NCBI GenBank assembly: GCA_044892505.1
Contig: CM097884.1
Location: 86,056,001 to 86,120,000, forward strand
Source of the DNA: Schmidtea nova
Taxonomy: Eukaryota
DNA: 64,000 nucleotides
Reading direction: 5' to 3'
A model generated the notes under the pieces. It made no database searches, was not told where the DNA came from, and saw only the letters and a program-made list of their open reading frames with translations. Each line of letters opens with the position of its first letter. Positions within the stretch are counted from its first letter, which is position 1. The position numbers and the translations under genes are program-made. Positions 1,460-61,760 of the stretch are shown here, in pieces.

Positions 1460-1803
1460 TATAAAGTCTAATAATAATTAACGTATAATGAGGTTATACG
1501 TAATATATCTATATGCCGGAAATATTTCTGGTTCATAAAAACATTCAAGATTACTTGATAATTTATTTAGATTGGCACATGTTCCAATATTTGTAGTAGC
1601 TGTAATTGATTGTATTTTCAAATCACTTATAATAATTCTTCAGCTTTAAGAAACTCTTTACATCCCATTATTCTACATTTCACTGAATTGAAAAATATAT
1701 TTGAATATTTGCCATTCCTATCTACAATTGGTTGTGACTAACCTTTTGGAAATTTTATATGAGAAACACAACATTTGCCTTTGTAATTTATGTTGCTTAA
1801 CAT
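1460..1803 (-). pseudogene. TBP (TATA-binding protein)-like gene of Polinton remnant 1
   Basis: Manual translation: MLSNINYKGK..SQPIVDRNGKYSNIFFNSVKCRIMGCK..(frameshift)DLKIQSITATTNIGTCANLNKLSSNLECFYEPEIFPAYRY. It resembles TBP repeat motifs (LIFxSGKxxxxGxK, IQNIVxTxNL, YEPExFP). Two stops and one frameshift. Confidence 0.7.
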
Positions 1804-1899
1804 TATTCGAATGATTAAGTTTTTAAATAGTTTAACTAAAAGTAAAACAATGAATTAAAACAAATATAAACAATATCGTTAAACAATTAATATTAGAAA

Positions 1900-2510
1900 A
1901 TTGAATTAAGAAATGATGCAGCTTATCAAATTGTTGGTCTAAATGGAAGTGGAAAATCATAATTTATTTGTAAATTATTACAATCTAAATTATTCAAATC
2001 AAAACTTAACAAATGATATTCTCATAAGGGAACTGATGATGAACATAGTATGAATCAAGATCAATTCTGTAAGATTAAAATGAAATTATAATAAAAAGAT
2101 TTGATAAAAATTGGTCGTATAGATTACGAAGTGATGATGTGATTATTATTGATGACTTGTATCAAGAAGCAAATAAAGAAAAGGACTTCAATAATTTATT
2201 TACAAAAATCGCTAGAAACAAAGGTTTTTCAGTTATTTTTATTACTCAGAATTTATTTCATCAGGGCTGCATTCATCGAACACGTAATTTGAATGTTCAA
2301 TATCTAGTTATTTTTAAATATCCTAGAGATGCCACAGTTTTCTTGCAAGACCTTAATAATCAAAATTTCTTGATCAATGTATTTCAAGATGCAACTAAAG
2401 TCCCACATGTCTATATCTTTCTTGATTTTACTCAAAAATGTAGTGATGAATTAGGTGTTAGAACTGAATTTTTTTACAAAGAAGGAGCAATGGTTAATAA
2501 ACAAAGTTAA
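1900..2510 (+). pseudogene. Polinton A32/FtsK-like packaging ATPase
   Basis: Walker A GLNGSGKS, Walker B IIIDDL, SVIFITQNLF and RTRNLNVQYLVIFKYPRD motifs; upstream half broken by stops (ORF track 2139-2510). Confidence 0.9.
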
Positions 2511-2719
2511 AATCGTGTTCCGAATTAATCATGAAACTTAAAGAAAGTGCCAAACATCTAAAGTTATTAAAACGAATCGTGAAACAATAATTCCGTCTAA
2601 AACTAGTTTCACACATCCGAAAAAATTGTTCACCGAAAACTTTCCAAATATTAATCTTATTTAACATAATTGAAAACCAATAACCGCTACGCCAAAAGCA
2701 TCTGCAAGTAAAAAAATCT

Positions 2720-3030
2720 AAAAATCATCGTAGTTTTCCGTTTTTAAATGCATTGCTAAAGGCTCCAAGCAAATGAAGAATGAGTATTTTACAATGGTTT
2801 CCCAATTATGTTATAGATGATTTACTCGACGTTATAGTTAAAGTTGTCAAAGGTAAAATTAATATTAGTAAATCAAATATAACGGTTTTGAACAAACACA
2901 AGAAACCATTACTTTCGCTCGTAAATACTAAAAATCTAAAACCAATGTGTATAATAATATATAAACAATACAGAGGGTTTATTGTAGCATTGTAATCATT
3001 AACATTATCTTTATTAGGGGGTGTAGGATT
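2720..3030 (+). pseudogene. Conserved small Polinton protein
   Basis: FPNYVIDDLLDVIVKVVKGKINISKSN..LNKHKKPL; homologues at ~5700-5780 (-), ~35050-35150 (-) and 52372-52572 (-); always next to Polinton genes where context is visible. Confidence 0.65.
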
Positions 3031-3149
3031 ACAAGGAAAACCCTCAACATCATAAACAATGGGTGAATTACCGATTGGTCATTTACCTAATCTTAAATTG
3101 TATTTTAATTCTGTTTGTGGGAATGTAGAAGATTTGGACAAACCATAAA

Positions 3150-3490
3150 GATCCCCCCCCAGTTTCGATGAAATTGAAAAGCTAAAGAAAAAAGTTCCAA
3201 ACTGTAAAAAAGAGACTCAGAAATGGTTATTTGGACAACTGTCATACAGTCTAAACCAACTGGCATTGAAACCATTTCCAGCAAAAGTATCTAGAACATA
3301 TGACATTATCGACTTGTGGCAATCGGATTTGATGGAAATGATTCCCTATTCAAAAATTAACAAGCGATATAAATATATTTTAACATGTATCAATGTTTTC
3401 AATATATTTGCTCGGGCTATTCCTACAATAGCTAAATCTGTAAATGAAATCGCCGTTGAAAAACTATTATCTAGTAGAGCATTTTCATAA
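3150..3490 (+). pseudogene. Polinton retroviral-type integrase, N-terminal part
   Basis: IDLWQSDLMEM..RYKYILTCINVFNIFARAIP (typical WQxDLxD..YILTxIDVFS). Confidence 0.85.
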
Positions 3491-4299
3491 AAATAAAACA
3501 TTAATAGAAAGACCGGAGCTTTTAGACTCAATATTTGATATATAACAGAGTCTCATGAGCATCTCGGAAGGGTCATAATCAAGATCGCAAATATTAAAAT
3601 TATTGGCTCTATTTATTTTGTGATAAACTTCATCATATTTCAAAATAGCCAGAATGCTATAAATAAAACACAAATCGTCGGAATTTATTACATTAACAGT
3701 AGAGTGCTTTTAAATTAAAGAATTAGGGGTATTAATGTGTCTTCGACCGCTTAAAGCCACAGCTTTTAGTCAAGACAAAATGGATTTCATTGAGTTTATT
3801 AATAACCTAATTATTCATCTTATCGTTTATTAAAGATATTTTCTTTCATTTAAAAGAGTAATGCTCTTATCTAAAGTTATGCCACTCACGAGTCTTGCAG
3901 AATTTGAAATATTGAATAATTAAAATTCACAATCTTTTTCAAATTATATGTCTATACAAAATTGTATTTTGACCATCCCCATTTCATTAATTACTTTGTA
4001 TAATTTATTTGTAAAAATTTCTGGTCAAATTAAAATTTCTAAATTAAGATCAGAAATAACCATTTTAACAATGGCGTTGTATAGCGTTAGGAAGAAAAGA
4101 ACCACCACATTGAACATCTATTAGGGAATTGTCGTCGGAAAAAAATGAATAAGTTATTGTAAGTAATGTATTCATCCGAAATGATAATTATTTCATTTAT
4201 TATAGTATAGTCAACTAAAGTATTAATTATATTATAAATGTGATGTGTTTTCGGTAGAGTTAAATATTTCAGATAATTTGCCTGAATATTTTAAAAAGA

Positions 4300-4739: not shown

Positions 4740-5330
4740 CGTTGACCACTCAATCATTATGTGTGGAATAACTATATATCATTTTAGCTAAAGGATTTAT
4801 CCAGGTTTCATTCCCCTGAAAAACAAAATATTTTTTTCAATTTATTTCTCAGAGTACGATTGAAACTTTCAGCATCAGTTGCGTTGAATTGAGGAAATAC
4901 CGAATAATGATTAATCCTCTTTATAATTTCTTTAACTTTATTATTGTAGGATTTTTAATATAATAATTAAAAATGTAAATTAATCTTAATTTAAATCTTA
5001 ATTAATTTATTACCTAAACCAGTTTGTAAATTTCGAGGCTTTTCATCTGTAAATAATGTTTTATAGCAATTTCATTTGCAGATTTAGTTCTTGTTGACAA
5101 AGCTTGTACATAGGAACTAAACACATCAATACAAGTCAAAATATATTTTTACCCATTGTTTATTTTATCTTTTAATTTCGATTTAATTCATTTGCCATAA
5201 ATCATCAACACCAATTTCTTTATAACTATACCTCGAAAATCATTTTAACATTGGTTTATTTAAACTATTTGGAAATCGATCCTATAACAACTTTTATATA
5301 TCGGTCATTTGAATTATTTTCTCTTATTGG
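4740..5330 (-). pseudogene. Polinton integrase core (remnant 2)
   Basis: VDDLWQM..YILTCIDVFSSYVQAL..EKPRNLQTGLG..AESFNRTLRNKL; many stops. Confidence 0.8.
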
Positions 5331-5914: not shown

Positions 5915-6530
5915 ATTTAGTTTACAAAAAATACCATTCCTTATTCATTAAAATGATTAGTTCTAATACGTAAATCATCAGAACATTGTTGTGTGAAGTC
6001 TAAAAACAAATATACGTGTGGAACTTTTATTGAATCTTTGAGTGAATTTTAAGTAAAACTTTTCTATCATTAGGATAAATCTGTCTTGCAAGAAAATCAA
6101 TAAGTGTTGTATCTCTAGGGTTTTTGAATATAGCCAAGTATTGCACATTTAAATTCCATGTTCTATGACTTCCACTTTATTCAAATAAATATTGAGTAAT
6201 GAAAATAACTCTAACAACTAAAAGTCTATTAAATTTTGTTAATAAATTATTGAATTTTTTTCTTTATTGGATTCCTTAAACAAATCATTGCAAATTATTT
6301 CATTATCTTGCTGTAACCTAGATGACCAATTTTTATCAAAACCTTGATGGTCAATTTTAATTTAAAAAACTGATCTTGAGTCAATCGATGTTCTTCCTTA
6401 GCTCCCCTATGCCAATATTTTTTGAAATTCGATTTAAACATGTTGGATTGTAAAAATTTGCAAACAAATAAAGTTTTTACACTTCCACTAGGTCCCGCTA
6501 TTTGATAAACCACATCATTTTTAATTCCAT
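5915..6530 (-). pseudogene. Polinton packaging ATPase (remnant 2)
   Basis: YQIAGPSGSVKTLFVCKFLQS, collinear with 1900-2510; the downstream part carries the RNMEFKCAILGY/KNPRD-type region with frameshifts. Confidence 0.85.
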
Positions 6531-6582
6531 TTTTATTTAATTTATTTTTTATTATTGTTTATATTTGTTTAATTAATCAAAG

Positions 6583-6960
6583 ATGTTGAGCAACATCATT
6601 TATAAAGGTAATAATTAGTTCCCGGTGTGATATTTCTAAACGGAAAACCTAAAAGTTTTTGAGATAGAAATGGTAAGTATCCTGTCATCTTTTTTTTCAC
6701 ATTTTGCAAGTGTCAAGTAATGCCATGCAATCAACCTTTATAACCCGTGGTTTGAAATTCAAGATTAGAAATTTAGAAATTCAATCAATCACCATGATGG
6801 TAGATTTCAAAAAAAATTATAAATTTATATGATTTACAAAGACAGCAATCAGTACATATACTGGTACCCAAAATTCGAAAAGCCTACTACTTCAATATTT
6901 ATAACGCAAAATAAAATTCATTCAGAAAATATTTTCATTCAATAAAAATTATATCTTTTG
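6583..6960 (+). pseudogene. TBP-like gene of Polinton remnant 2
   Basis: MLSNIIYKG..FLNGKP..DRNGKYPVIFFS..CKCQVM..FKIRNLEIQSITMMVDF; homologous to 1460-1803 and in the same divergent position relative to the ATPase. Confidence 0.6.
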
Positions 6961-20599: not shown

Positions 20600-21540
20600 G
20601 TTTTTTAAACATCAGTCGTATCTGGATTGTTATAATAATAATTCAATAGTTTCTGTTGATCAGTCAAGAATAGTTAGTAAAGATCACCAACTCTTTACTT
20701 ATAAATCTTTTAAAATTGCTTTGACTAACCTCGATGTAAAATGACTTTAGATTTCTAAAAAAGAGAGTCTTGCTTATGGACATTATAGAGGAATCGATGT
20801 GGTTATGGCGGTGCGCGATGATGAAGCCAATGAAGCCGATGTTGAATTTGCTGATAAATAACATGGATTGACTCAAGTAGTTTATAATGATTATGTAATG
20901 ATTACGTACTATATACAATATTACATAATGCAGCATAGGTCTTAGTGTAGTGAGTTAAACTGCATAATTATTACGTATTATAAATGGATAAATGGATTGT
21001 GTCAGGCGGTTCACCTCTCCCTGCTACTTTTAGTGTTTCGAAATTTTCTATTGTCGCTGGTTAGTCTCATCTATTCTATACTATTCTGCAATGCCTAATT
21101 TTCTTATTGTCTCTAATTTGAATTCTGCCTAGTTCAGTTTAATTCATATTTGTCCATTTCTAATTATGTCTCTGTTTTTTGTATATTTTTCTTTTTAGCC
21201 TATTAATCGCAAACACTTATAGATAATTTCTCTGTTTTTGATTTCTGATTCCAGCTTATTCACTTGTTCATCCACAATTTCTCTATTATCTCAGACAGTT
21301 CTTGAGATACACAATTTTATTTGACTGCCTCTTTTTACTATTTCAACTTCCCTTGTTATACATTCGTTATCTTAGACAAACGGCCGAGATATGTAAATTC
21401 TGTCCTGACTTTGTTTTTGAATTCTTTTTTCCAATTTGTACTAGCTAACTACTCATGTCCTTTTTTGTTTTATTGTTGACTTGCTATTTTTTCTCTTTTT
21501 ATCAATTACTTCTCCTCACTCTTGCTATTAAGAATTTTGG
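20600..21540 (-). mobile_element. Degenerate member of the short LTR-like family
   Basis: Shares TTATCTxxGACAG motifs with 18289-19034; ends unclear. Confidence 0.3.
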
Positions 21541-22979: not shown

Positions 22980-24200
22980 TTTTATTATATAGACTTGATA
23001 AAAATTTGTTTTCCTCAAATAGGCTCTAGAAATTTCCCCACAGTCGTTTTCAAGTGTTTGTCAAAATTAGTCCATAAAGAATATTCATGTCAGTAAAGAT
23101 ATGAAAATTATCGTTAGAATCACATAGTCCTTTTACCTTTTCGTGACCAATTGAAGATTAAGTCCGTCAATCTTCTGTTGATAAGCAATATTTAACTGAT
23201 AGAAAAAGGCATTCAGAAAGGAAATTACTTAACATAAAGTCAAAAACACCAATTGCAAATGTCAAAAACGACTTGAACTATTCATGTGTTTACATTTTTA
23301 TCTAATAAAATGTTGTAGATTGAATTCTTATCTCGCCCAAACCTTCTTGTGATCTTCAATAAATTTAATCTACAATTCGTATTATCATATATTAATGAGA
23401 CTTTGAATATATGGAGCGGGATTTTCCTACATTTTAAAGAATAACATTTAATATTTTTGTGTTATGGTTGCAATTATTTTTTTATATGATCATCACCATT
23501 CATATACATTTTATAAGTGGCTTCATGGATACCAACATATTCCATACACATGAAAGACGAATGAAACATATTTTCAAACAAACATTTTAAATCTTTATAT
23601 AGTAATAATCTTTCCGCCAAGAAATTCATAAACCTAATTAAAGAAAATATAAAAGCAGCTGATTTAATTTCAAGTTCAAAATTAAGAGTGATATAGGTGA
23701 TTTTTTATTTAATATATCTTTCAGCAGTAGTTATTAAACTATATTCAATTTCTATCGTAGTTTTCATTACAAAATATGTTAAGTATGTTCCTGCTAAATT
23801 AAAATTTCAAATAGCATGAGGTTAAGTATATTCTATTTATATAGGATACGTCTGTGTTACGCCGTCTATGGAATCAATAACAACATTAATAGTTCTTCAT
23901 TAATATCACCATTATAATTTAAAATAGTTTTAATTATTGCCCTGTGTGTATACGTATTGTTTCCACCTTCAAATCTTGATATTATTACATTCAAGAATTG
24001 CATCCTTAAATAGGGTTTGAAACATGAAATATTTTGGTACAACATCTTCAGCAGCTCTTTTAATGTAAAATTTAACATCATTTCTATCATCTGTAATGAC
24101 ATCTATGGGAATACTACTCCAAACGCTCCAAATTCAAAAAAATGCTTAAGGAGATGGTAGCTCAAAAAGGCAGAATTCACATATACTTTCAATGAATTTT
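22980..24200 (-). pseudogene. Polinton major capsid protein remnant
   Basis: EFCLFELPS.., NNTYTHRAIIKTILNY (cf. NNxYPYRAYIETLLNY) and LENDCGEISRAY; heavily disrupted. Confidence 0.65.
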
Positions 24201-24519
24201 ACGTCTAGGTCTAACTTGTTCTGGTTTCGGTTTCATTTCTGGTTCATTTTTATTAAACACACTTTTATTACACCTGGAATCATATAAGTCACAGTAGGTA
24301 ATACTTTACTAATTGCAGACATAGCCTTTGTTTTCAATGATGACAATAGTTTCTGATCATTCATGATCGTATCTTAAGTGGTTTTCAATCCAAAACTATT
24401 TATTTGTTTAAAAGATGGATATTGCTAAATTGTTTACCAACAAAATAAGGTAATTCCCCAACTGTTTGGCTATTACTCTAAAATGAAATTATATCTTGAT
24501 TAATCAATAAAATTTCAAA

Positions 24520-25415
24520 ATTGTAGTGTCAAATGAGTTTTTGAATCTTTTGGAAAGTTTATCCGTTTTCCGCTCTCGTCACAGATATTTATTTCTATAT
24601 TGTTTATACATGATGTTATAATAGGTAAATACATTATATTATCTACTACTATTTATACAATTTCATTCTGATCGTATTTATTTATCTAAACCGATTTTAG
24701 AAGAGTAACCAATGAATCACCGACAATTATGAGTTCAATTATGTTGTTAAATATAACATTTATTGATGATAAATAAGCATTTTCATTTTACGTATATTAT
24801 AGATCATATCTTTATCTACAAATGTTTTCTTATCTATTCCAAATGTATTGAACAAAATTGTATCAAATGTAACTTCATTAATGTTTTCTGAGAACGAATT
24901 TGAACAATTTATCAATCTCCAGAGTTAGACAGACTTGAGAGCAATTAATTGAAAAATATTTATGTAAATCATCACTAAATATAAAGGTTTTTTTAATTTC
25001 TACATCATGCAATATTGTTATTCTTACTATTTTGATTTGATTGTGTTACACCACTCGATTTGCTTTTTCAATATATATTTAAAAAAAAATTATGAATGAT
25101 GTAAAATCACAGCTAAAATGTAACAATCCGTTTTTTTAAAAATTATTACAATGTTGATCTAGTTTATATTTCGAAATATCATAGATTCTATCAACATTGC
25201 TGATAAGAAATAGATCACAACATGCTTTCAGTTCGATTCCTTTGTAATCAATCTTAAATTTACTCTAAAACAAGAATGTATTATACAAAAGTTGAAATAT
25301 TGCAATGAAACTTCCCAATTTCCATTTAAATAAATTGGATTTGAGAATTGACCATAAATTAACTGACTTATTATCTAGAAGTTATAATGAACAACTATTA
25401 CGTGGTAGAATAGTA
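24520..25415 (-). pseudogene. Polinton minor capsid (penton) remnant
   Basis: N-terminal FYTILPRNS..NPIYLNGNWEVSL; C-terminal MYLPIITSCINNIEINICDESGKRINFPKDSKTHLTLQF. Confidence 0.75.
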
Positions 25416-25422
25416 TAAAAAT

Positions 25423-25695
25423 TCATTTCACTAAATATTTTGCTGATATCAATGATGGCTTTTGATATCCATGCCACTTTACATAGTACTGTTTAAACTT
25501 AACCAAGATTTCATTTTTCAATATTATTTGAATTCTAAATACTGTTCGTAAAGGAATAACATGTAGTACATGCTCATAAAATTTCCCAATAACTATATTA
25601 TTATCAGTATCAGAAATGACATAAATGATATGTGGTGGGAGTTTTATTTTGTCCGGCGGACATGTCGGAATGTGTAGAAGGACTTCATGATGCAA
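25423..25695 (-). pseudogene. Polinton integrase C-terminal chromodomain
   Basis: PPHIIYVISD..GKFYEHVL..VFRIQIILK..YYVKWHGY..SLISAKYL. Confidence 0.8.
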
Positions 25696-43329: not shown

Positions 43330-43500
43330 ATCATAAAGGTTTCGATAAAAATTGGTCATCTAGATTAAGGTAGGGTGATGTGAATATTATTGATGACTTG
43401 TGGTGGTAGTCATCGAACCAGGAATTTAAATGTTTAATATCTTGTTGTTTTAAAATCTTAGAGATGCAACAGTTATTGATTTTCTTGCAAGACAAGCATA
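43330..43500 (+). pseudogene. Internally deleted Polinton ATPase remnant
   Basis: IKIGHLD, IIDDL, HRTRNLNV and RDATVIDFLARQ pieces. Confidence 0.7.
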
Positions 43501-43599
43501 CCCTTCTAATCGGAATTCCATTAAAATGATCATAACATAAATCATAAAAAATGATCAGATAAAATGATCATGGAGTAAGTTTTATTTTTAAAATAATTA

Positions 43600-43895
43600 T
43601 CTAAATTAGTTCTACTCAGGTATTGAGAGTTGGTAAGATACTTTTGGGAAATTAATTTATTGGAGTTTATCCATTAGATAAACTTCCTTATTTGAATATT
43701 AATCAGGGCATCATTGTAAATGCTCAGACATCTATTTTGGGCGGTGAACATTGGATTGCTATTTACCTTAAACCTGATTGAATACATTTATTTGATCCCT
43801 TTGGATTTTATTATCCCTTTTTATTAGTTAGTAAATTGAAGACATTGTGTAAACCGATTGTATATAACAAAATTCGGTATCAACAGCCATTCTCG
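43600..43895 (+). pseudogene. Adenain-type cysteine protease (Polinton)
   Basis: FIGVYPLDKLP..IIVNAQTS..GEHWIAIY..FDPFG..RYQQPFS; catalytic His/Asp and oxyanion Gln present, truncated before the Cys. Confidence 0.85.
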
Positions 43896-44165
43896 ACTGA
43901 AATTGGAGAAACAATTATTAAGGAATTATGTATAATGAATGTTAATAATATTTTTAAACCAAAGTATTATATATACACTGATTTACCTTTCTGGGCTGGT
44001 ATTTATGATCGATTGGAATGGTATGAGTGACATCATTACTTTTGCCCAACATGTATAATAAATGATATTGAAGGTACTAGTGTTATTTTCTATGTCACTG
44101 ATCATGAAAAAATGCAAGTCTTGAAGAAGTATTTCCCGAAATTGACATTAATTAAATATAATTTT

Positions 44166-46925
44166 TGTTGGGTGCCATGGATGGGTTAAAACAAAAGATA
44201 AACGCTCTAGGGATGCCTCTATCCATGACCAAACATGAAATGTATTCGTGACACACAAGCACCCTCGATTATTTCCCTGGGTAATCGAGTTGGAAATGTG
44301 CAAGGTGTTTGAACAATGATAAGCAGGTGAGCTCTATTACTAGAACTATTCCCCATTTATGTTCACGGGTTCGTCGCTGCCGATAGAAGGACTTACGCTT
44401 TACTTTATCTGGATTGATTATATTTCCTTTTATTATTCCTGCCCCCTTCTTACAGTATCAACAGTTAATTTGAATCATTTATATGTTAGATCTTAACGTT
44501 TATCATTTGTCAAATTTCATTAATACTTTTGTATACATAATTTTGTATTTAATTACTTTATATTAAAATTTTTGAATAAACTTTATTTTCCATTACTCTA
44601 CCGTATTATGGTTTAACCAAAAAAAAAATAATGATAAATTAAACTACATTTCTATTTAAAATAACAACAGAATTCATTAGGCAGTTAAGAACGCGAAGAA
44701 ATCTTCGTCTGTTGATGCAAAATCTGTTGAAAGATCTATTTCTGGCAGTTCATCGGAATGACTAATTAAGTGTTGCATAACTTGTTTCCTCCACCTTCTT
44801 TGTCTGGCTCCCATTTTATATTTACTTTTCTTTTTGTTCTCGATGATGGTTGGTGAGACGTTTGGTGCGGTTGTAGTCTTTATTTCAAGAACCTGCAACG
44901 GTCCTTCCGTATTTGTTCCTTTTGAACACCCTGCTATCTCCTCTGACCAATGTTGATATGTAATTGGTCGGATCAACTGTTTTAGCTCACGGTCTATGAA
45001 CGATGTGGTGATTACCTTGAGGCATTTCCTTTACTCGATTTTTGTTGCCTCGAGCTCTGTTCTGTATTTTTCTCCTGCTCTCTGCGACCGTTGATTCTTC
45101 ATGATTTGAATCTTCATTTGTTCGGGAGTGAACCAGCTTTTATTACGGTGTGCGTTTAGCGCTTCTGCTGCCTTCAGTTTCTCTTTGGTTTGATTTAGTT
45201 CCTTTTCGAGGCTGCGAACGATTCGCCAAGCCTTATCCAACTCAGTAGAGGAAGTTATTGGATTTGTTCCCATTATTCTAAAAATCGATTACGATTATTG
45301 ATATACTTCCAGTTTTGTAGATAATGATGAAAATTTGTGTTTAAGGTTCTTTATGATTTAACGAGAATAGTTCTTACGGACTCCATGTCATTTTTTAAAT
45401 GATGATTTCATTTAAGTTGATATAATTTTTATTTTAAATGGGAGAATGAAGAGAATCCGCTATGCAGTTCAACACTGTCGCTATGTACAGCGATCAGGAT
45501 AACCATATAATTTATAAAATTTTAGCTCTGCTGCCCTATCTACAGGGATAAGAATACTGAATATATTTATATTTGAATTATTCTGTCGTCTATTTGCTTA
45601 TACTTTAGCTATTTACACCAAATCGGATGATCACTACAATATGTAGCCTACGTTGATTTATTATGTATACGCCAACCTGTTACCAAATCCAAGAGAAAAA
45701 AACAATCTCAATTGCAATAACGCTAATCTGGAATTATCGATCATTATGTTTTGGCAATTTAAGAAAATTCTGGTCAATCTACAATCCTACATGAATCTAC
45801 ATAAATTTTAAACTAGTTGTCAAAGAAGATGATAATCAAAGTAATGCGACCTCTCTAGATCCTGGACAATATTTATCAGCTACAGTTTTCTCTACTTGTT
45901 GGTAGTCAAAAATTTATAGTTGGAAATTTCATTCTTTGATTTTTATCAATTCGTTGTATGGAAATCAACATTATCCTCGTGCGCCAAATTCCGGATGCAC
46001 AATCTCTACTCATGATCGGTTTAAAAACAAATTTCTTTTGCCCAAAGTTCAGGTAATAAAATAAATTTCGAGTATCAAATTTCACTGTTAAAATTATTGG
46101 TTAATAAAAATATACCCATCAGCTGTACTGGTTGGGGTTGCTATCATAAAAATTCAATTCTAAAGTACTCTACCGTCTTCATGACATTTAATACCATGAA
46201 GATGGCCTAACTTCACGGAGTAGTTAATCCACTCAGGCGAAGTCTGCCTCCTTCCACCGATTACACGGTAGAAAGAAGCTCCCTTTAATCATTAATATAA
46301 TAAAATACTTCATTTCGCCTCCTTCCACCGATTACACAGTGGAAGGAGCCCAATCTGACAACATTAACATGAGTGTAAAATAAAATATTTCTTTTTAAAT
46401 TTATTAAAATTTCAAAAATCATGATAACATATAATCATAACAATTTAAAATCAAACAATGCTCATACTTGCTAAGCTATCAGTCTTCAATAAAGAAAATT
46501 TTCTGACAAAAATTCATAAGTTAAATTGTCTGATTCTGGTTCAGTATTTATACTGAACCGATCAGCACACCGATCAATCAGCGTCAAGCTGATGGTCGTA
46601 AAACCAAATTATTTATAAATCAAACAATTTAATTTTTTGTTTAAATTGATCATAATTTTATTAATTATTTTCTTAATTAATTATTTATTTTAATTGATAA
46701 ATATTTCATTACATTTCTTAATCATTAATTCTCATTTTTCTTACATTTATATATTATTTTTATGTCTTTTTATTATTTTTATTATACCATTTATTTCTGG
46801 TCTTATTATTTCAATTCATTCCATTTAAATCTCTTCTTATAGTATGTGTTTTACTATGGTTATTTTTATTATATTTATTATTATTATTTATTTATTCAAA
46901 TGATGGTCAAGTGGTGGACCCAACA
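44166..46925 (-). mobile_element. Solo-LTR-like element, copy D (2760 bp)
   Basis: TGTTGGG..CCCAACA ends; TSD TTTT; inserted in a Polinton ORF (LIKYNF|KEIENL rejoins). Confidence 0.9.
44677..45273 (-). pseudogene. LTR-encoded coiled-coil/basic/acidic protein, copy D
   Basis: ORFs 45031-45273 and 44677-44976 are in one frame separated by a single TAA (EATKIE*RKCLKVITTSFIDRELKQLIRPITY). Confidence 0.85.
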
Positions 46926-47789
46926 TTTTAAAGAAATTGAAAATCTTTCAGATAATATATAATATCCCTATATAGACCATAGGATGTGTACCTAAAAACG
47001 ATGTTTGTGTGGTGTAATTGATTATTTAAAACAATAAATGTATTATTTATTATGTGTTTTATTATTTTTTATTATTAATTAAAATTATTATTATTTTGTT
47101 AAATATTATTATTTTGATAAATATTACTAGTCATGACAAAGCAGACAAAGACACGTGAGGTCATGTACCTTCATATTTTTGTCATGTCACATAACAACAA
47201 TCGTGACATCATACACATAAACAATCATGTAGTAAGTGTGCATGTATTTCTTTATCCTATCCCGATTCTGATTGGATGGTTAATAAAACTTGAAATATCT
47301 GCCTTTTTATAGTCTATACTTTCATTTTGTAGTCACTTTTAATCACAATTTTCAAATCATTCAATTTTTTTAAACAATTAATAAGATGAAAAATTTATCT
47401 ATCAATATGAAACTAAGAGTTGTTGAAGGACTTAATATTGACAATAAATTTCCAATACAAAAAAGGCCAGAAAAACATAGTGGCCTGTAAGCGCAGAGAA
47501 CATCTTTTTTGGGGGGGGTTAGAATTTTGATGTGCGCCAAAGGGCCATTAACCACCTACTTTTTATCATTATTAATTTTAGAAAATAACATGAAAAATGC
47601 CAAGGATGCTCAGGATGATGCAATCAACTTTTCGAATGTCCCAAATTTTACAGATTCTCTGACATTTTCTGATACTGCTTCTGCTGCCGTTGCTGTTGTG
47701 GATATTGATGTCTCGATTTATGCCACGAACAAATGTAATTTCTTTATAAAATATTTATATTATGTTCAATATTACCGATTTTAAGTTTT

Positions 47790-49290
47790 AGACGGTATCC
47801 CAATAAACTTGCTTTTGTTAGAAAATAAAAAAAAACATATCATTACTTCGCAATAACAGACAAATAATTTTTTAAATTGTAAAAATGATTGAATCTCTCC
47901 TCTCATAATTTTGAGTTAATGGTGTCTCAGATGTTTAAATGGCTTTAGGAATGACGACACTTTCGATTGTCATATAAATCTCTCTAAAACAATTCAGTTA
48001 GGTATAACAATGTACACCATTCCTACAAATAAATATCTTAAATTTGCTGACTGGAAGAAGGCTGTCACTCCTCTCTTTGTTATTTACACCAATTTCGAGG
48101 CAATTTTACCTAGAGATACTATGCATTTTCAAAATCACTTGCCTATTTCTGCTGGTTTGCTGCTTATTAATAATTTTACCGGTGTAAAGATTTAAAAATC
48201 TTTCATAGAACTAGATAGTGTTGATCAATTTCATAACGAAATTGAATTAATTAGTAAATATTTCGTGGATCCCTTTTATTAGAAAAACTATCAAAAGAAA
48301 ATGATTTTTTCTGATGCAGATAAAATTGTTTTTGATAATAGCACAAGATGTTACTTGTCTAAAAACCTGTTAATTAATCCTGTTTGCAATCATGACCATT
48401 TAACGGTCAATTTCTTGGAGCTGCTTGTTCTTCTTGTAATCGATCAAGACAAATTAAACATACCATTCCTGTCACCTTTTATAATTTCAAGGGTTATGAT
48501 CTACATCACATTTTAAAATTCGGATATCCAAAATATCATTCATGGAATATAAGCTGTATTCCCTTGACTAGTGAAAAGTTTCTCAGCCTTTTTGCTTATA
48601 TAGATTCTTTAATTGTAAAATTCATAGACTCTTATCATTTTGTCAGAGTCTTTAAATAATGCTGTCTGACTTCATTGCCTCTGATAGAATCTGAATTTAG
48701 GGCACAATCATTACTGCCAAGGGTATCTTTCCTTATGACACAGCGACTTCTTTAAAAGTTTTAAAAAAGACATTTTCTTTACTTCTTATCTGGAAAGACG
48801 CGAAGACAGCGTATACCAGTGCGTATACCTCAGGGCTTTATAAAGATATCAACAATTTATATGGCTGGGCTTTGAACCAGAGATTGCCTTGTGAAAATTT
48901 TGAATGGGTCACAGATGAAGCTTTAAGTCAGATTTTAATTGAATGCACTAAGGTAGATTTGGATGTACTTCATTATGGTTATACTATATGATGTAGATCT
49001 AGAAATACCGGCTTTGATTCACGACAAGCTAAACAATTTTCCAGTTACCGCAAAAAAAGATCTACATTCCAGGCTCGAAAGTGAAGAAGCTGTTGCTTAA
49101 GCACACGCCCAAGAAAAAATATGTTCATCATTGGAGGCTTCTCGCAACATTTATTAAATTAGATGTAAAAATTATCAAAATACATAGAGCAATCAAATTC
49201 ACAGAATAAATATTTGAAAACTCTGTTAACACTAATACGACGTTAAGAGCAGCATCTGGAAATAAATTGGATAAACATTATTGACATTAA
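47790..49290 (+). pseudogene. Protein-primed DNA polymerase B (Polinton)
   Basis: CLRCLNGF, VIYTNFEAIL (ExoI), HDHLT..GAACSSCN, FYNFKGYDLHHI (ExoII), KFIDSY, KGIFPYD, YKDINNLYGWA (Pol motif A), IHRAIKF; internal deletions. Confidence 0.9.
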
Positions 49291-52306: not shown

Positions 52307-52371
52307 TATATAATCAACAGCCGTAAATCAAGTGTTTAGGTTAAAAAAACTCTTTGTTGCTTATATACTAT

Positions 52372-52640
52372 TTAAAACATTTGACTTCGATTTTTACTAT
52401 TTAATAGTGATCGCAGTGGCTTTTTGTGTTTGTTCAAAACAATTTTATTTGATTCACTTATGTTCATTTTACCTTTGACTATTTTACGTATAACATCAAG
52501 TAAATCATCAATGACATGATTGAGAAATGATTCTAAAATAATCATTCTTTTTGCACTAAGAGCTTTAAACAATGCATTAAAATATTGGAAACTATGATGC
52601 CTTGAAGTTTCTATTACTGTTCGATTTTTCTTCCGAGTTG
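52372..52640 (-). pseudogene. Polinton small conserved protein fragment
   Basis: NHVIDDLLDVIRKIVKGKMNISESNKIVLNKHKKPL, homologous to 2780-2995. Confidence 0.75.
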
Positions 52641-55600
52641 GTTTTAAATTGTGTGAAAAAACTTTAAATAAATTATTTTTCTTATTTTATTTTAGTAATT
52701 TTTCATTTTTAAAAGTATAATAAAGTTAACAAAACAATTTTTTTTATTTAAAAAAATAAATTTAATAAACTTTTCAAATCCCCTCATTTCTCATTAAACA
52801 TTACCATAATTCCTTAGGTTGGTTTTGCATTTTATTTATTTATTGACTTGTTCAACTTAATTTAAATTAATCCTGACTTGCTAATTGAAATATATTTCCA
52901 ATATCCCTTCAAAATTATCAGAGTGCCTGCAATGTCTAATTATTTTGCCATAATTATGTTAATGGTAAAATAAATATTTTTCTTTATTTTGTTTGAGTCA
53001 TGGGTGGAAAAATTCCTATTATAGGGTGGTAAGGTAATGAAACTAATTAGGAGTTTGCTCGTTATGTTGAATTTTAATTAATTTTATTCTAAAATAAATG
53101 ATAATATGGGATTCAGTAAAAGTTTCACTTATGATGATAAAAATTAAATTAAATTTCAACAAAAATTGCATCGTTAGTGTTAAATAATTAAAAGTAGGGT
53201 GTGCAAACAGTTAAATTTGATCAGATTTATTACGCTGTCCGTTTTATTTTTTGCATTAACCGAAAACGTTTATTTTTAATCAGTAACATGACATTGTTAT
53301 TTTAATTTTATCTGAAAATCACATTTTCTCCATTGAATGATGCTAATTGATTCCACTTTGCTAAGGGCTTTTTTAAACTGGCGTCAATTTTTTTAACATA
53401 ATTTTTCATAAAATCTTAAAAATTTATATTTCTTCTAAATTTTACTATTATTTTATTTTACTATTATGTTTATGTTTCCAGAATGCACGTAAAATTGTCA
53501 AAGAACAGGCAAATCATTTGTTTGGATATAAAAATATGCATTTTTAAAATTCTTAAATTTAGAAAAAGGGTAGGGTAGACATCTTGTAGATTGTGATGGT
53601 ATCTTTGAGTAGAAGCAAATGTGAGAGCATTCTAATAGCGGCACTATGCTATATGACGATGAAAAAATACTTTAAAATGCTTGAAAAATAAGTAAGTTAG
53701 TTTTAATTATTGATTTGTACACTTCCGTATAAAACAAAATGTACATTTTATTTACATTGTTTTTTGAAAAACAAAATAAAATAAAAATTTTTAACGAAAA
53801 TTGAAAAATACTGCCACAGAAGTCTTTATCGAAAGTTTATTATTTTATTACTTAAGCGCTAATCTAAAAGCAAATACGTATTTTTGGTATATCAATTTGG
53901 TATCAATTTTGGTATTATCATTATAATTACAGTAATAATAAATCATAAATAAATTATATCTAACTCTCTATTGTCAAACCATAAATTATTGGCGCTTCAT
54001 TTGTGAATATATTTTTATATTTTGTTTACATATCATATTTCAAAAAAAATTAAAAAATTATTATTGAGATTTTTCCAGTTGTTTGTTAAAAAAAACTATT
54101 TAACACTGGAACTACTAACACATTAAAATGACGAATTTAATATTTTTAAATTTACATTTAAAAACATCTTATTTATATATATATATATTGTTATAAGAAT
54201 ATATAATAATTTCTAATATGACATTAAAATAATTAAATATCTATTTTTATATTTAATTTAAGTGCATTAAATAATTTGGAATTGGATTAAATAAATTTTG
54301 GTATACAAAAACTTTAGTATTTCAAGTGTTAAATTCCAATTTAATATTTGCCTCAGCTCTAAAGACCCCAAATTGACCTTAAAATGACATTAAATCATTC
54401 TACTTTCTTGGTTACCAAAGCAACGACACGGATGTCATAACTATCAATGAACAACATTTCTATAAGAATGGATAATGTTACAGACTCGGACACCGTTATA
54501 TAACACTCAATTCAATTTTTATATCACGTTTAAGAAGTCATATTGTATTATTATAAATAAGCCAACTTGCAGCCATCAAAATCGACTTGGTTGTCTTTCT
54601 AACAATTAATAAATTACCATGATATTATAATGATAAAATTCTGTGTAATTTAATAAATATTTTTTATTTAAAAAAAATTCATAATAAAGTTAAAATTATT
54701 TAATTTTTATGTATATCATTTTACCAGAGAACACTAGTTTAAAATAAATATATTAATTTATTTCTTTTTAAACACGCCTAGTAAATATTATTTTACCACA
54801 TAAAAATTTAAAATAATCTTAAAAGGTTTATTTGAAAAATATATTTTTATACTTTGACCTATCTTATTATTACCAACGTACGATGAATGAAGAAATCGAA
54901 TGAAACTCTTTAGCAACAGACATAATTAATGAAATATATAAAATAAAATCCAAAGTAGGTTATATGTAATTTTCATTGTATAAATTTAAATTTTAAATTT
55001 TAAAAATTAAAATGTCATAATTAAATTGCTTTCTAAATAAAATCAGCAGAATATATTATATATACTTAAATGATTTGAATATGTAAACAAATTAATGTGT
55101 TTACTGAAAAAGCTGTCAATTAATGGTTGTATAGGTAAACAGGTTCTCGTATTTCAAAAAGCTTTTAATTAAATGTTTTACAATACAATTCTTTTTTCTA
55201 CAAAACAATTTTTATGAATCAAATTTTTTATTTGTTTAATTCTCTAAAAAGAAAATTCGAGTTTTATGTTATTTTAGATTGTTAAAATCACAAATCATTA
55301 GTTTGGAAAATAATTAAGTAAAACAAAAAAACGAATAAATTTCGAATTAAAACAATAAATCAATATATTCTAAAAAAAGTAATAATTTTTTTATTAAAAA
55401 TTATTATTTTTGTGAGGTTTTATTTGTTTGTGTATTGTTTGGCTTGCAAAATTCAAATTATTTAAAAATGAAAATTGAAGGGAAAGCTAATTAAAAATAT
55501 TTGAAATTAAAATCAAAAATAAAAGTGATATCAAGGATAAATATAATAATATAATATTTCACCAAGTTTCTCAGTGCTACCTCAGAAAAAAATGAATATT

Positions 55601-59169: not shown

Positions 59170-61760
59170 TCGGAGTGAGAATGGAAGTAGGTGTGGCAGT
59201 CAGAGTAGAATAGGGGTAAGAGAGGATATGAGGATGGGAGTGGGACAGGCAGTAAACTTGTTAGCTGCACTCGATGTGTAAGTGAGTAAGTGTGAGGATC
59301 ATAGGATAATGTATAGCAGAATGCAAAGTAGACCAAGTGTTAAGCTGAATATAAAAGGTTGTAAAGTAGATTGCTTATTAGATTCAAGAACCCGAGTGAA
59401 CGTAATAGCAAAAGCAGTTGTGGATAAATTAGTTAAAGTAGAAATAAGCAAAACGGATGAGTTGTTAAAATTTGCGAATAATAGGAAACTAGAAACCTTA
59501 AGTAAGTTATACACTGAAGTTAAAATTGGCGATGTAGAAATAAAATTAATTAAATAAAATTTATTGTTGTTAAAAATGTTGTTCCAGAGATAATTGGAGG
59601 ATTTGAAATACAAAAAGCATTTGCAAACAGATCATAATGCAATAAATATCTATTTCAATATCACCTTTATGTTGATTATCTATATTACATATAATACCTT
59701 TATGTTGACAACAAAGAATCCAATAGCAGCACAATTTCAAACGTGGATCAATCATTTATGCACCTTGGGGATAACGATCGAATATAGAAAAGGAACTGAT
59801 CACGCAAATGCGGATATACTTTTAAGGAAATCACGAGGAACATGTATACAATGCATAATGGAACACTTAAAACAGAAAAGCGGACGAGTACGAACAAGGC
59901 GACTGATCATATATAATAAGTTCTGGGCAATCCAAAGGAGCCGGACATTCGGGCAATTGCTTGCATTGATACGATTTATCGCAATCAGTCGATTCATCGT
60001 AATCAGACATTTTTTCGCAATCAAACGATTTTTCACAATCAAGCGATTTTTCGCAATCAGGCGAATTTTCGCAATCAGGTGATTTTTCGCAATCAGGTGA
60101 TTTTTCACAATCAGGCGATTTTTCACAATCAGGCGATTTTTCACAATCAGGCGATTTTTCGCAATCAGGGGATTTTTCATCAACCGACGCTTCTGGTGTC
60201 GAATTAGGCCATTGCTTTGGATGATCGTCCTCCTCGTCTATTTTTTGCAATTTCTTGCAATCCATTTCGAATTGGTTGAGGGCGTTCCGTAACACCCAGA
60301 TACGATACTTTTGTATGCGGTCCATACAATGACCGCATTGGTAGGCGCACAAGATGTGCTCCGCCATATATGGCATTTCACTGTCCCGATTAGCCAGGGG
60401 ATTGAGCAAGACCTGGTGAACATCGATCCCAGTCAAGCATTGGATTTTGTAGGGAATCAGTTCCGGTGCCGTATAGGTCAGCTTGGGCATCAGCATCGGA
60501 TAGATTTCTTCAAGCTTGCCGTAAAGTACGGAGATCAATTTCTCTAAAATAAAAAAAATTATAAAAATGAAAAAATAGTAAACTTTAAAATTTACCATAT
60601 TTCATTATATCGGACATTTTTTGATTGTGAATATAAATGATTGCAAAATGTTCATTGTATATATATGATAGAAACACAAGGCATGTACAAAATATTACAC
60701 ACTGAACCAATCAGATTCGAGTATGCATAACATGTCTTTATTATCGAAATACACATTGGACCAAGACAGCATAAATAAGTGACAAAATAATAATGATGAG
60801 ATAAAAGAAATAAAGAATGAAAATGAAGAGTTCAAGAACGGAAGATTCATAATGAAGGAGAAAACGATATATACAAGCAAGAACAAACTCTGGATAGCAA
60901 AATTGAAAATACGAGATATGATCAAGGAAACACATTTAATGTCATGTCATGCAGGAATAAAAAAAGTGACAAACTATATCCAACACGATTTCGACATGGA
61001 AAATTTGGTAAAAAATGTAAAATCAGTAATTGAAAACTGTATTGCATGTCAAAAAACGAAGACTTACCATAAAGGCAAAAAAAAGAAACTAAAACAGTCA
61101 TAAGTGTGGAACCTTTTGAGATTATCTTTATGGAAATATGTGGACCAATGAAAGAAGCAATCGATCGAGAAAGATACACATGTGGTATCATTGACCAATA
61201 AAGTTAATGCATTTCTCTGTCTGTTATAGCTAAACAAGATGAACAAACAATATTGAAAACTTTGTTAAACAAAAGATATTGAGATTTGGAGCACCGAAAG
61301 AACTGCATGTAAACTGTGGGGAATGTTTTGAGTCAAACGGTGTAAAAAGATTGACAAAGTCAACAGGAATCAAAATAGTGTTTTCAAGCTAATATCACCA
61401 TAACACTAATCGATTAATAGAAAGACAGTTTCGTGCAATCAGAGATTATATTAACGCGTCGTTAAGAGAACAAAGCAAAAATAGTTGGGCAGAGAAATTA
61501 CTGGAAATTAGATATACTTTGAATACAACGATAGAGAAAACAATCGAGGTATAGCAGTGCTTCAATAAATAAAGCAAATGGAAACGGAAGCAACAAACGC
61601 AAAAGAGATGAAAACAATAAGAAAATTCAATTTAGGAGATACTGTTTAATAAAGGGTGTGATTCGAAATAAAGACAAAATACGATTTGAAGGACCTTACA
61701 CTTAAATAAAGAAAATTCACAAAAGAAGCTTTTTGTTAAGATATGAAGAAGGTAAAATCA
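59170..61760 (+). pseudogene. Ty3/Gypsy remnant (protease, RNase H end, integrase) with an internal foreign insert
   Basis: CLLDSRTRVNVI (aspartic protease), TDHNA, QFQTWINHL, RKGTDHANAD, HLMSCHAG..CIAC, EICGPM and RFEGPY; RT deleted. Confidence 0.85.
59867..60617 (-). CDS. Two-exon gene of unknown function with EKSPDC repeats
   Basis: Exon 1 60617-60596 (MSDIMKY+G) splices in frame over a 52-nt GT..AG intron (60595-60544) to exon 2 (EKLISVL..). 18-bp repeats at ~59990-60180; TATA-like ~60657-60666 and CCAAT 60707-60711 upstream. Confidence 0.65.

What the first reader, a model, noticed from the sequence alone, without database searches (positions are those of the whole stretch)
1460..1803. 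TBP-like gene head-to-head with the packaging ATPase in two independent Polinton copies
Seen: both Polinton remnants carry the same small gene starting MLSN(I)xYKG, divergent from the ATPase (1803 leftward, 6583 rightward); the ORF track misses it. Copy 1 reads IFFNSVKCRIMGCK..IQSITATTNIG..YEPEIFPA. Known: these resemble TBP core repeat signatures (IFxSGK, IQNIVxT, YEPExFP), and TBP is not among the canonical Polinton genes (pPolB, INT, PRO, ATPase, capsids). Inference: this Polinton lineage carries its own TBP-like factor, possibly to redirect host Pol II to viral promoters.
Basis: partly seen in the sequence, partly recalled or inferred. Interest (0 to 1): 0.75.

Follow-up and report, generated by a model that had tools for sequence, protein, structure and literature searches.

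The report
Polinton mini-TBP with its own promoter
A virus-like Polinton transposon, present in many copies in this animal genome, carries its own shortened TATA-binding protein, and its packaging and capsid genes sit behind a non-standard TATA-like motif that this protein likely reads to switch those genes on with the host's RNA polymerase II.

Summary
Confirmed and extended. Both window copies are decayed remnants of a Polinton gene. In 12 of 14 close genomic relatives it is an open 156-aa frame. It passes the Pfam TBP cut-off and folds as a two-lobed TBP (pLDDT 97, Z 12.6). The family is broad (136 of the top 150 clusters), under purifying selection (dN/dS 0.09-0.26), apart from host TBPs in a tree and Polinton-linked elsewhere. 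It keeps three of four DNA-intercalating phenylalanines and both TFIIB-binding glutamates. Its DNA face is polar and the N-lobe regulatory helix is eroded. No viral TFIIB was detected. Late-gene blocks carry YATAAAC on the coding strand 62 times, against 2 antisense and about 10 expected. The motif precedes 10 of 11 ATPase genes but 1 of 21 TBP-like genes. It is not enriched in another Polinton lineage. Likely a herpesvirus-style late-promoter factor; binding is untested. Print shows only a figure-legend mention. This scan noted the same on other genomes.

The parts
1473..1803 (-). TBP-like gene, copy 1: broken and 3'-truncated remnant (codons 1-112 of a 156-aa gene)
   Evidence: family identity from intact relatives
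1865..1872 (+). TATAAACA, candidate late-promoter motif about 36 nt before the ATPase start position
   Evidence: window sequence
1900..2507 (+). A32-like packaging ATPase remnant, copy 1
   Evidence: tblastn; Pfam Pox_A32 on an intact relative
2548..3052 (+). Remnant of the basic 181-aa gene of unknown family; holds a YATAAAC site at 2960
3051..3058 (+). CATAAACA motif upstream of the integrase remnant
3149..3457 (+). Integrase (rve) N-terminal remnant, copy 1
3494..4102 (-). Fragment similar to the reading frame that precedes the pPolB core in intact elements
4765..5266 (-). Integrase remnant, copy 2
5926..6525 (-). A32-like ATPase remnant, copy 2
6556..6563 (-). TATAAACA motif upstream of the copy 2 ATPase
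6583..6835 (+). TBP-like gene, copy 2: heavily decayed remnant (codons 1-83 recognisable)

Best explanation
The gene encodes a Polinton-borne, shortened TATA-binding protein that likely acts as a late-gene switch: it is predicted to bind the YATAAAC(A/G) motif found before the element's packaging, integrase and capsid-module genes and would recruit host TFIIB and RNA polymerase II there. SHOWN: TBP family and fold, Polinton linkage, purifying selection, the residue pattern, and the motif's strand bias, position and distribution. INFERRED: the gene is made early from a host-type promoter (it lacks the motif). Its polar DNA face reads the C-containing TATA variant. The retained stirrup glutamates dock host TFIIB. 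Loss of the N-lobe helix H2 surface frees it from Mot1, TAF1, TFIIA and Brf. The two window copies are dead remnants.
For: Family and fold. Selection: dN/dS 0.09-0.26 in 10 of 11 pairs, one saturated. One side of a tree branch, 100/99, apart from host TBPs. In 55 family rows F38, F97 and F113 are kept in 54, 55 and 55; E93 in 52 and E95 in 55; R44 and M46 in 55; N111 in 53; R101 in 54, where cellular rows have V, T, L and I/V. The G47-Q67 linker that holds helix H2 has a median of 19 aa (short type), 28 (longer type) and 33 (cellular). Pfam TFIIB gives 25 first-look candidates in this genome against 14,002 for TBP and 15,542 for the ATPase (candidates, not copy numbers). Motif: 62 sense, 2 antisense, 9.8 expected in 10 late blocks. 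ATAAACA ranks first of all 7-mers (57 against 8.5). 26 of 53 motif-to-ATG distances are 29-46 nt. It precedes 10 of 11 ATPases against 1 of 21 TBP-like genes, and 13 of 14 further ATPase-selected copies with none on the divergent side. It is held inside coding sequence: TAT AAA CA in 9 of 9 ATPase YKQ ends, although P(AAA) is 0.28-0.44 in four of them. A held-out contig found by its ATPase (L146) has both the family protein and ATAAAC (5 against 0.8). Four contigs of another Polinton lineage, two with a canonical-faced TBP, show 3 against 5.5 expected. A GT-AG intron-like segment in the integrase frame fits nuclear Pol II transcription (by eye). Precedent: KSHV ORF24 uses a polar face on TATTWAA (PMC12529657, passages). 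The stirrup glutamates bind TFIIB and the N-lobe basic patch binds regulators (PMC7221094).
Against: There are no binding, transcription-start or expression data. The motif was found after the fact in the same loci, and those loci are related. The contrast contigs are partial, and six of the seven come from one bin, so they are close to a single independent observation. The seventh, L152, has three YATAAAC sites and no TBP within its 6 kb. The motif also occurs before some non-structural genes in the longer-type elements (L052, L048), so 'late' is a label by gene type only. A wild-type plant TBP has been crystallised on the C(-25) variant of the adenovirus TATA box (1qn3; I map that to TATAAAC by inference), so host TBP can engage such a sequence. 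One of the four phenylalanines is missing. Only 4 of 21 TBP-like genes have a canonical TATAWAWR upstream, so their 'early' promoter is not defined.
Confidence: 0.6

Rival explanations
1. Host TBP or a host TBP paralogue reads YATAAAC, and the Polinton protein is a decoy or repressor that sequesters TFIIB or blocks promoters.
For: TFIIB glutamates are retained. The host has TBP plus at least three paralogous loci. A host-type TBP can bind a C(-25) variant in crystals.
Against: A decoy needs no invariant, re-polarised DNA face. Canonical TATAAAA is not enriched in these late blocks (13 against 15.8) while the variant is. The variant is not enriched in the lineage with a canonical-faced TBP.
Confidence: 0.15
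2. The protein is a DNA-bending factor for replication, integration or packaging (for example at the terminal repeats), unrelated to the motif.
For: It often neighbours a gene with a gp2.5/Enc34-like OB fold, a likely ssDNA-binding protein (Z 7.7, middling), and the packaging ATPase.
Against: The invariant TFIIB-stirrup glutamates have no evident use there. The motif would be left without a reader.
Confidence: 0.1
3. The protein reads the motif but works with another partner (a viral cofactor, or Brf and Pol III) rather than host TFIIB and Pol II.
For: Most viral TBPs pair with a viral TFIIB, and Brf proteins also use the C-lobe glutamate (PMC7221094). Herpes ORF24 bypasses TFIIB. Several element genes have no family.
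Against: No TFIIB-family gene travels with the element. Brf1 also needs the N-lobe basic patch, which is eroded here. An intron-like segment in the integrase implies Pol II.
Confidence: 0.1
4. The motif is a host Forkhead site or a polyadenylation-like signal, so its co-occurrence with the TBP-like gene reflects shared ancestry only.
For: ATAAACA fits the Forkhead consensus RYAAAYA (recalled, no call). Many sites lie near the 3' end of the preceding gene.
Against: Strand bias is 62:2. GTAAACA is only 8 against 4.5 and AATAAAC 8 against 7.4. In this genome the motif precedes an ATPase that has no upstream gene on its strand.
Confidence: 0.05

Closest known systems
Cellular TBP family (Pfam PF00352; e.g. 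PDB 2z8u, 1ytb, 1cdw)
   Same: Two-lobed saddle (Z 12-12.6, rmsd 2.5-3.1 over ~143 residues), three of four Phe, first Asn, C-lobe YEPE.F stirrup.
   Different: 145-175 aa with no N-terminal extension. N-lobe helices H1 and H2 are eroded in the short type. First Phe lost. V/T/L/I/N contacts are replaced by invariant N6, R44, M46, S68, T70, R101, N111. Forms its own branch.
Beta/gammaherpesvirus viral TBP mimics (KSHV ORF24; BcRF1 appears weakly)
   Same: Viral TBP fold with a polar DNA face, paired with a variant TATA box before late genes, using host Pol II (PMC12529657, passages). This is what it most likely works like.
   Different: ORF24 is a multi-domain protein in a six-factor complex, lacks the TFIIB glutamates and reads TATTWAA. 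The Polinton protein is a bare core, keeps the glutamates, and its motif is YATAAAC.
TBP-like proteins of large dsDNA viruses (ASFV B263R, mimivirus relatives, poxvirus VITF-3)
   Same: Virus-encoded TBP fold (Foldseek hits); loss of the N-lobe regulatory signature (PMC7221094).
   Different: Those mostly pair with a viral TFIIB and conserve the stirrup glutamate only ~40%; they have their own RNA polymerase (recalled). Here the glutamates are near invariant, no TFIIB was detected, and no RNA polymerase gene was seen in the mapped elements.
TBP-labelled gene in MELD viruses with adintovirus-like PolB (Starrett et al. 2021, PMC8502044, Fig. 5 legend)
   Same: A TBP-like gene in a Polinton-like element.
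   Different: Only a legend entry, in the section on non-animal datasets, with no analysis. I could not see the figure, so I cannot say which element or TBP type it is. It is not among the animal adintovirus accessory genes in section 3.2.
Polintons/Mavericks (adintoviruses)
   Same: TIRs, pPolB, rve integrase with chromodomain, A32 ATPase, adenain-type protease, putative major and minor capsid genes.
   Different: Adds a TBP-like gene, an OB-fold gene and a shared promoter-like motif.

Membership tests
TBP superfamily (PF00352) | Profile match above the curated cut-off | tested here: met
   54.8 and 54.6 bits against 22.9 for two intact relatives
TBP superfamily (PF00352) | Two-lobed saddle fold | tested here: met
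   Model pLDDT 97.1; Z 12.6, rmsd 2.6, 143 aligned; top 38 entries all TBP-containing
Canonical TBP | Four intercalating phenylalanines | tested here: not met
   Three kept; no aromatic residue conserved at the first N-lobe site
Canonical TBP | Hydrophobic DNA face with two symmetric Asn | tested here: not met
   Second Asn is Ser/Thr; several hydrophobic contacts are N/R
Canonical TBP | C-lobe stirrup glutamates for TFIIB | tested here: met
   E93 in 52 and E95 in 55 of 55 rows; 116 and 129 of 136 clusters, gaps included
Canonical eukaryotic TBP | Basic N-lobe helix H2 patch for TFIIA/Mot1/TAF1/Brf | tested here: not met
   Linker median 19 aa against 33; the model has no long helix there
Canonical TBP | Binds and bends a TATA box | not testable with these tools
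   No protein-DNA assay or model available
Herpesvirus vTBP (ORF24/BcRF1/UL87) | Large protein with a Pol II-binding N-terminal domain; no TFIIB glutamates | tested here: not met
   156-aa core only, glutamates present; ORF24 features
Large-virus TBP-TFIIB pairs | TFIIB homologue in the same viral genome | tested here: inconclusive
   None by Pfam among scanned element proteins or genome-wide (25 candidates, 6 matches); a very divergent cyclin fold is not excluded, and only one neighbour was folded
Polinton/Maverick | pPolB, rve integrase, A32 ATPase, adenain-type protease | tested here: met
   PF03175, PF00665, PF04665, PF00770, all above cut-off in genomic relatives
Polinton/Maverick | Terminal inverted repeats | tested here: met
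   Inverted repeats of 0.5-1.4 kb flank all 4 of 4 extended copies
Polinton/Maverick | Double jelly-roll major and single jelly-roll minor capsid proteins | tested here: inconclusive
   The 406-aa and 348-aa ORFs have no Pfam hit above cut-off and were not folded; called capsids by position, size and recall

The most novel reading that the evidence does not exclude
A broad group of Polintons runs the smallest eukaryotic viral early-to-late switch described: one ~150-aa re-specified TBP that reads its own YATAAAC box, plugs into host TFIIB and Pol II, and is blind to Mot1 and TAF1. It would be an orthogonal TBP-promoter pair, reached independently of herpesviruses, and a direct handle on when integrated Polintons make capsid proteins.
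Probability: 0.5. Interest if true: 0.85.

Novelty: new variant of a known kind. Interest (0 to 1): 0.7.

Why it matters
How animal Polintons control their genes, and whether and when they express their capsid module, is largely open; nine literature searches found no study of it. A named factor with a 7-8 nt candidate site makes this testable with a gel shift and a reporter. It also offers a natural test of how TBP's DNA specificity can be rewired, and of a TBP stripped of its regulatory surface.

Tried and rejected
(1) Chance match or host pseudogene: rejected. The gene is intronless, multi-copy, under selection and on its own branch. (2) Recent capture from this host's TBP: rejected. Host loci group with cellular TBPs. 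(3) Head-to-head layout as a defining trait: rejected, it is lineage-specific. (4) The neighbouring 147-aa gene as a TFIIB or TFIIA partner: its model matches gp2.5/Enc34-type OB folds (best Z 7.7, middling). (5) Viral contig collection: the TBP-like alignment found only 2 weak hits without Polinton genes; ATPase, capsid and PolB queries found none. (6) Expression: no RNA holder listed; no reads were laid. (7) The protein atlas was unavailable. (8) No complex was predicted: the likely host TFIIB gene is split into exons, the best TFIIB-family hit looks like BRF1 by recall, and the contact needs DNA. (9) Single or double origin of Polinton TBPs: the free tree does not join the second type (L148, L149) with this family, but the AU test does not reject one clade (p 0.089), so this is undecided. 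(10) The TATA-variant crystallography paper was not held. (11) No complete Polinton shown to lack any TBP was obtained, so the cleanest negative control is missing.

Full report
Observation. Copy 1 runs leftward from 1803 and copy 2 rightward from 6583, each divergent from an ATPase remnant. Copy 1 has a premature stop near 1740 and a frameshift near 1630, and ends near 1473. Copy 2 is recognisable for about 83 codons. Neither can make the protein, so the question moves to natural relatives.

Intact relatives. A DNA search of the window's genome (1.25 Gb) scored 40 of 5,823 candidates, at 85-86% identity apart from the window itself. Of the 14 other loci fetched, 12 hold an open 156-aa frame and 2 are truncated. 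Four copies extended to 30 kb show the order: inverted repeat, 147/174-aa gene, 90-aa gene, TBP-like gene (leftward), then rightward the ATPase, a 181-aa gene, integrase, a 348-aa putative minor capsid, a 128-aa gene, a 406-aa putative major capsid, an adenain-type protease, a 139-aa gene, pPolB and the inverted repeat. All 14 further loci picked by ATPase alone have the gene or a piece of it beside the ATPase. First-look candidates number 14,002 for the TBP family and 15,542 for the ATPase, but 25 for TFIIB. These are not copy numbers, but they show the gene is a standard part of a very large element family that brings no recognisable TFIIB.

Identity. Pfam TBP scores 54.8 bits against a cut-off of 22.9. 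PDB sequence hits are TBPs (best E 3.7e-14). The model has mean pLDDT 97.1 and aligns to TBPs over both lobes, Z 12.6, rmsd 2.6, 143 residues. It also matches TBP-like proteins of large viruses.

Spread. A word search found 82 relatives. A profile search over 50%-identity clusters gave 136 of its best 150 hits with the family signature. Among metagenome loci L030-L054, 12 of 25 show a Polinton core gene, including all 8 contigs over 4.5 kb. Five more show only accessory genes and 8 short contigs show none. The linked ATPases are 38-72% identical to the one here, and one element carries a parvovirus-type PLA2 domain, which Starrett et al. describe for Alpha adintoviruses. In a 48-row tree all 22 family rows form one side of a branch (100/99), apart from four host loci and 22 other TBPs; the tree is unrooted and 50 of the 98 aligned rows were left out. 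dN/dS is 0.09-0.26 in 10 of 11 pairs, one saturated; the ATPase is lower, 0-0.05.

Anatomy. Model residues 1-145 align to yeast TBP 66-240. In 55 family rows against 43 mostly cellular rows, three of the four intercalating Phe are kept (F38, F97, F113), and the first N-lobe Phe has no counterpart. The stirrup glutamates E93 and E95 are near invariant. Seven DNA-facing positions are fixed as different, mostly polar, residues: N6, R44, M46, S68, T70, R101, N111. Assigning these positions to the DNA face rests on alignment to TBP and on recalled TBP-DNA contacts. The linker that holds N-lobe helix H2 falls from a median of 33 aa in cells to 28 in the longer type and 19 in this lineage. Ravarani et al. 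place the TFIIB contact on those glutamates and the TFIIA, Mot1, TAF1 and Brf contacts on the N-lobe basic patch. They report that most viral TBPs lose the glutamates (about 40% kept) and pair with a viral TFIIB (PMC7221094; passages and two sections). This family is the opposite case: glutamates kept, no viral TFIIB seen.

A matching motif. Reading upstream regions showed (T/C)ATAAAC(A/G) before the ATPase and most genes of its block. In 10 blocks (40 kb) it occurs 62 times on the coding strand and 2 times antisense, with 9.8 expected. In an unbiased ranking ATAAACA is the top 7-mer and is present in all 10 blocks. Of 62 sites, 53 have an ORF start within 130 nt, and 26 of these lie at 29-46 nt. 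It precedes 10 of 11 ATPases but 1 of 21 TBP-like genes, and 13 of 14 further genomic copies, none facing the TBP-like gene. Where genes abut, the motif is written into the upstream coding sequence with fixed codons: 9 of 9 ATPase YKQ ends, and I-N dipeptides as ATA AAC (those I-N sites were picked by the motif). It departs from TATAWAWR (PMC10005294, passages) by C at position 7 and often at position 1. Canonical TATAAAA is not enriched.

Held-out check. An ATPase scan of genome bins returned 9 contigs that I read as misbinned eukaryotic elements. L146 has the family protein and ATAAAC 5 times against 0.8 expected, including 37 nt before the ATPase. Four contigs of a different lineage have 3 YATAAAC against 5.5 expected, and 0 of 7 such ATPases have ATAAAC upstream. 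Two of them encode a second, 183-185-aa TBP with a largely canonical face and intact helices. The control is weak: six of the seven come from one bin, most are partial, and L152 has three sites with no TBP in view.

Mechanism. The best reading is a minimal late switch. The TBP-like gene is transcribed without the motif. Its product binds YATAAAC through the polar face, docks host TFIIB through E93/E95, brings in Pol II for the packaging and capsid block, and escapes host TBP regulators. An intron-like GT-AG segment in the integrase frame fits Pol II. The closest working analogue is KSHV ORF24, whose polar, Asn-rich face reads TATTWAA (PMC12529657, passages), though ORF24 lacks the TFIIB glutamates. 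Every step from motif to binding to recruitment is inferred. Host TBP can probably engage such a box (1qn3), so a decoy role stays open.

Prior art. Nine searches found TBP tied to Polinton-like elements only in figure legends of Starrett et al. (PMC8502044: passages and sections 3.2 and 3.4; preprint passages). Its one supplementary text file had no hit for TBP or TATA. Ravarani's four text supplements had none for polinton, maverick, adintovirus or virophage, and one file was unreadable. PMC12220804 had no relevant passage. PMC12917281 I saw as a listing only. Figures, preprint supplements and subscription papers were not visible and may name this gene. This scan has 28 earlier notes in at least 3 genomes with these words, several with the same reading. 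I had logged the motif before that look-up, and I do not count them as support.

Verdict. A real Polinton-encoded TBP-superfamily gene, not a canonical TBP and not a herpes-type member: a new variant of the viral TBP-mimic theme. Interest 0.7.

Noticed in passing
L148:11565-12122 (-), L149:10649-11200 (-): A second type of Polinton-borne TBP (183-185 aa, near-canonical DNA face, helices intact) after the protease in a different lineage that lacks the YATAAAC enrichment; an independent capture is neither shown nor excluded.
   Followed up: partly
L003:37-480 (-) and relatives: The 147/174-aa neighbour folds like T7 gp2.5/Enc34 ssDNA-binding proteins (Z 7.7). In some copies it lies inside the terminal inverted repeats and so is present twice.
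   Followed up: partly
L020:2940-3030, L128, L139: The integrase is split over two frames by a short GT-AG intron-like segment in this genome's copies, while L044 reads through.
   Followed up: partly
L049:3449-3523, L052:5425-5496: tRNA genes (Ile, Cys) inside longer-type Polinton loci; the Ile gene lies between the TBP-like gene and the ATPase motif.
   Followed up: no
L003:849-1124 (-); window 60269-60535: A 90-aa gene with a Cys cluster follows the TBP-like gene in this genome's elements; no Pfam family and no hit in the metagenome loci.
   Followed up: no
window 20610-20846, 23887-25629, 43335-49281, 52345-52662: Further Polinton fragments (PolB, capsid block, ATPase, protease) are scattered through the window.
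   Followed up: no
L110-L116: The host has a canonical intron-bearing TBP, a second TBP-like locus present twice, and two divergent paralogues with long open frames.
   Followed up: no
L006/L007: Two near-identical partial elements face each other as an inverted pair about 1.2 kb apart, much like the two copies in the window.
   Followed up: no
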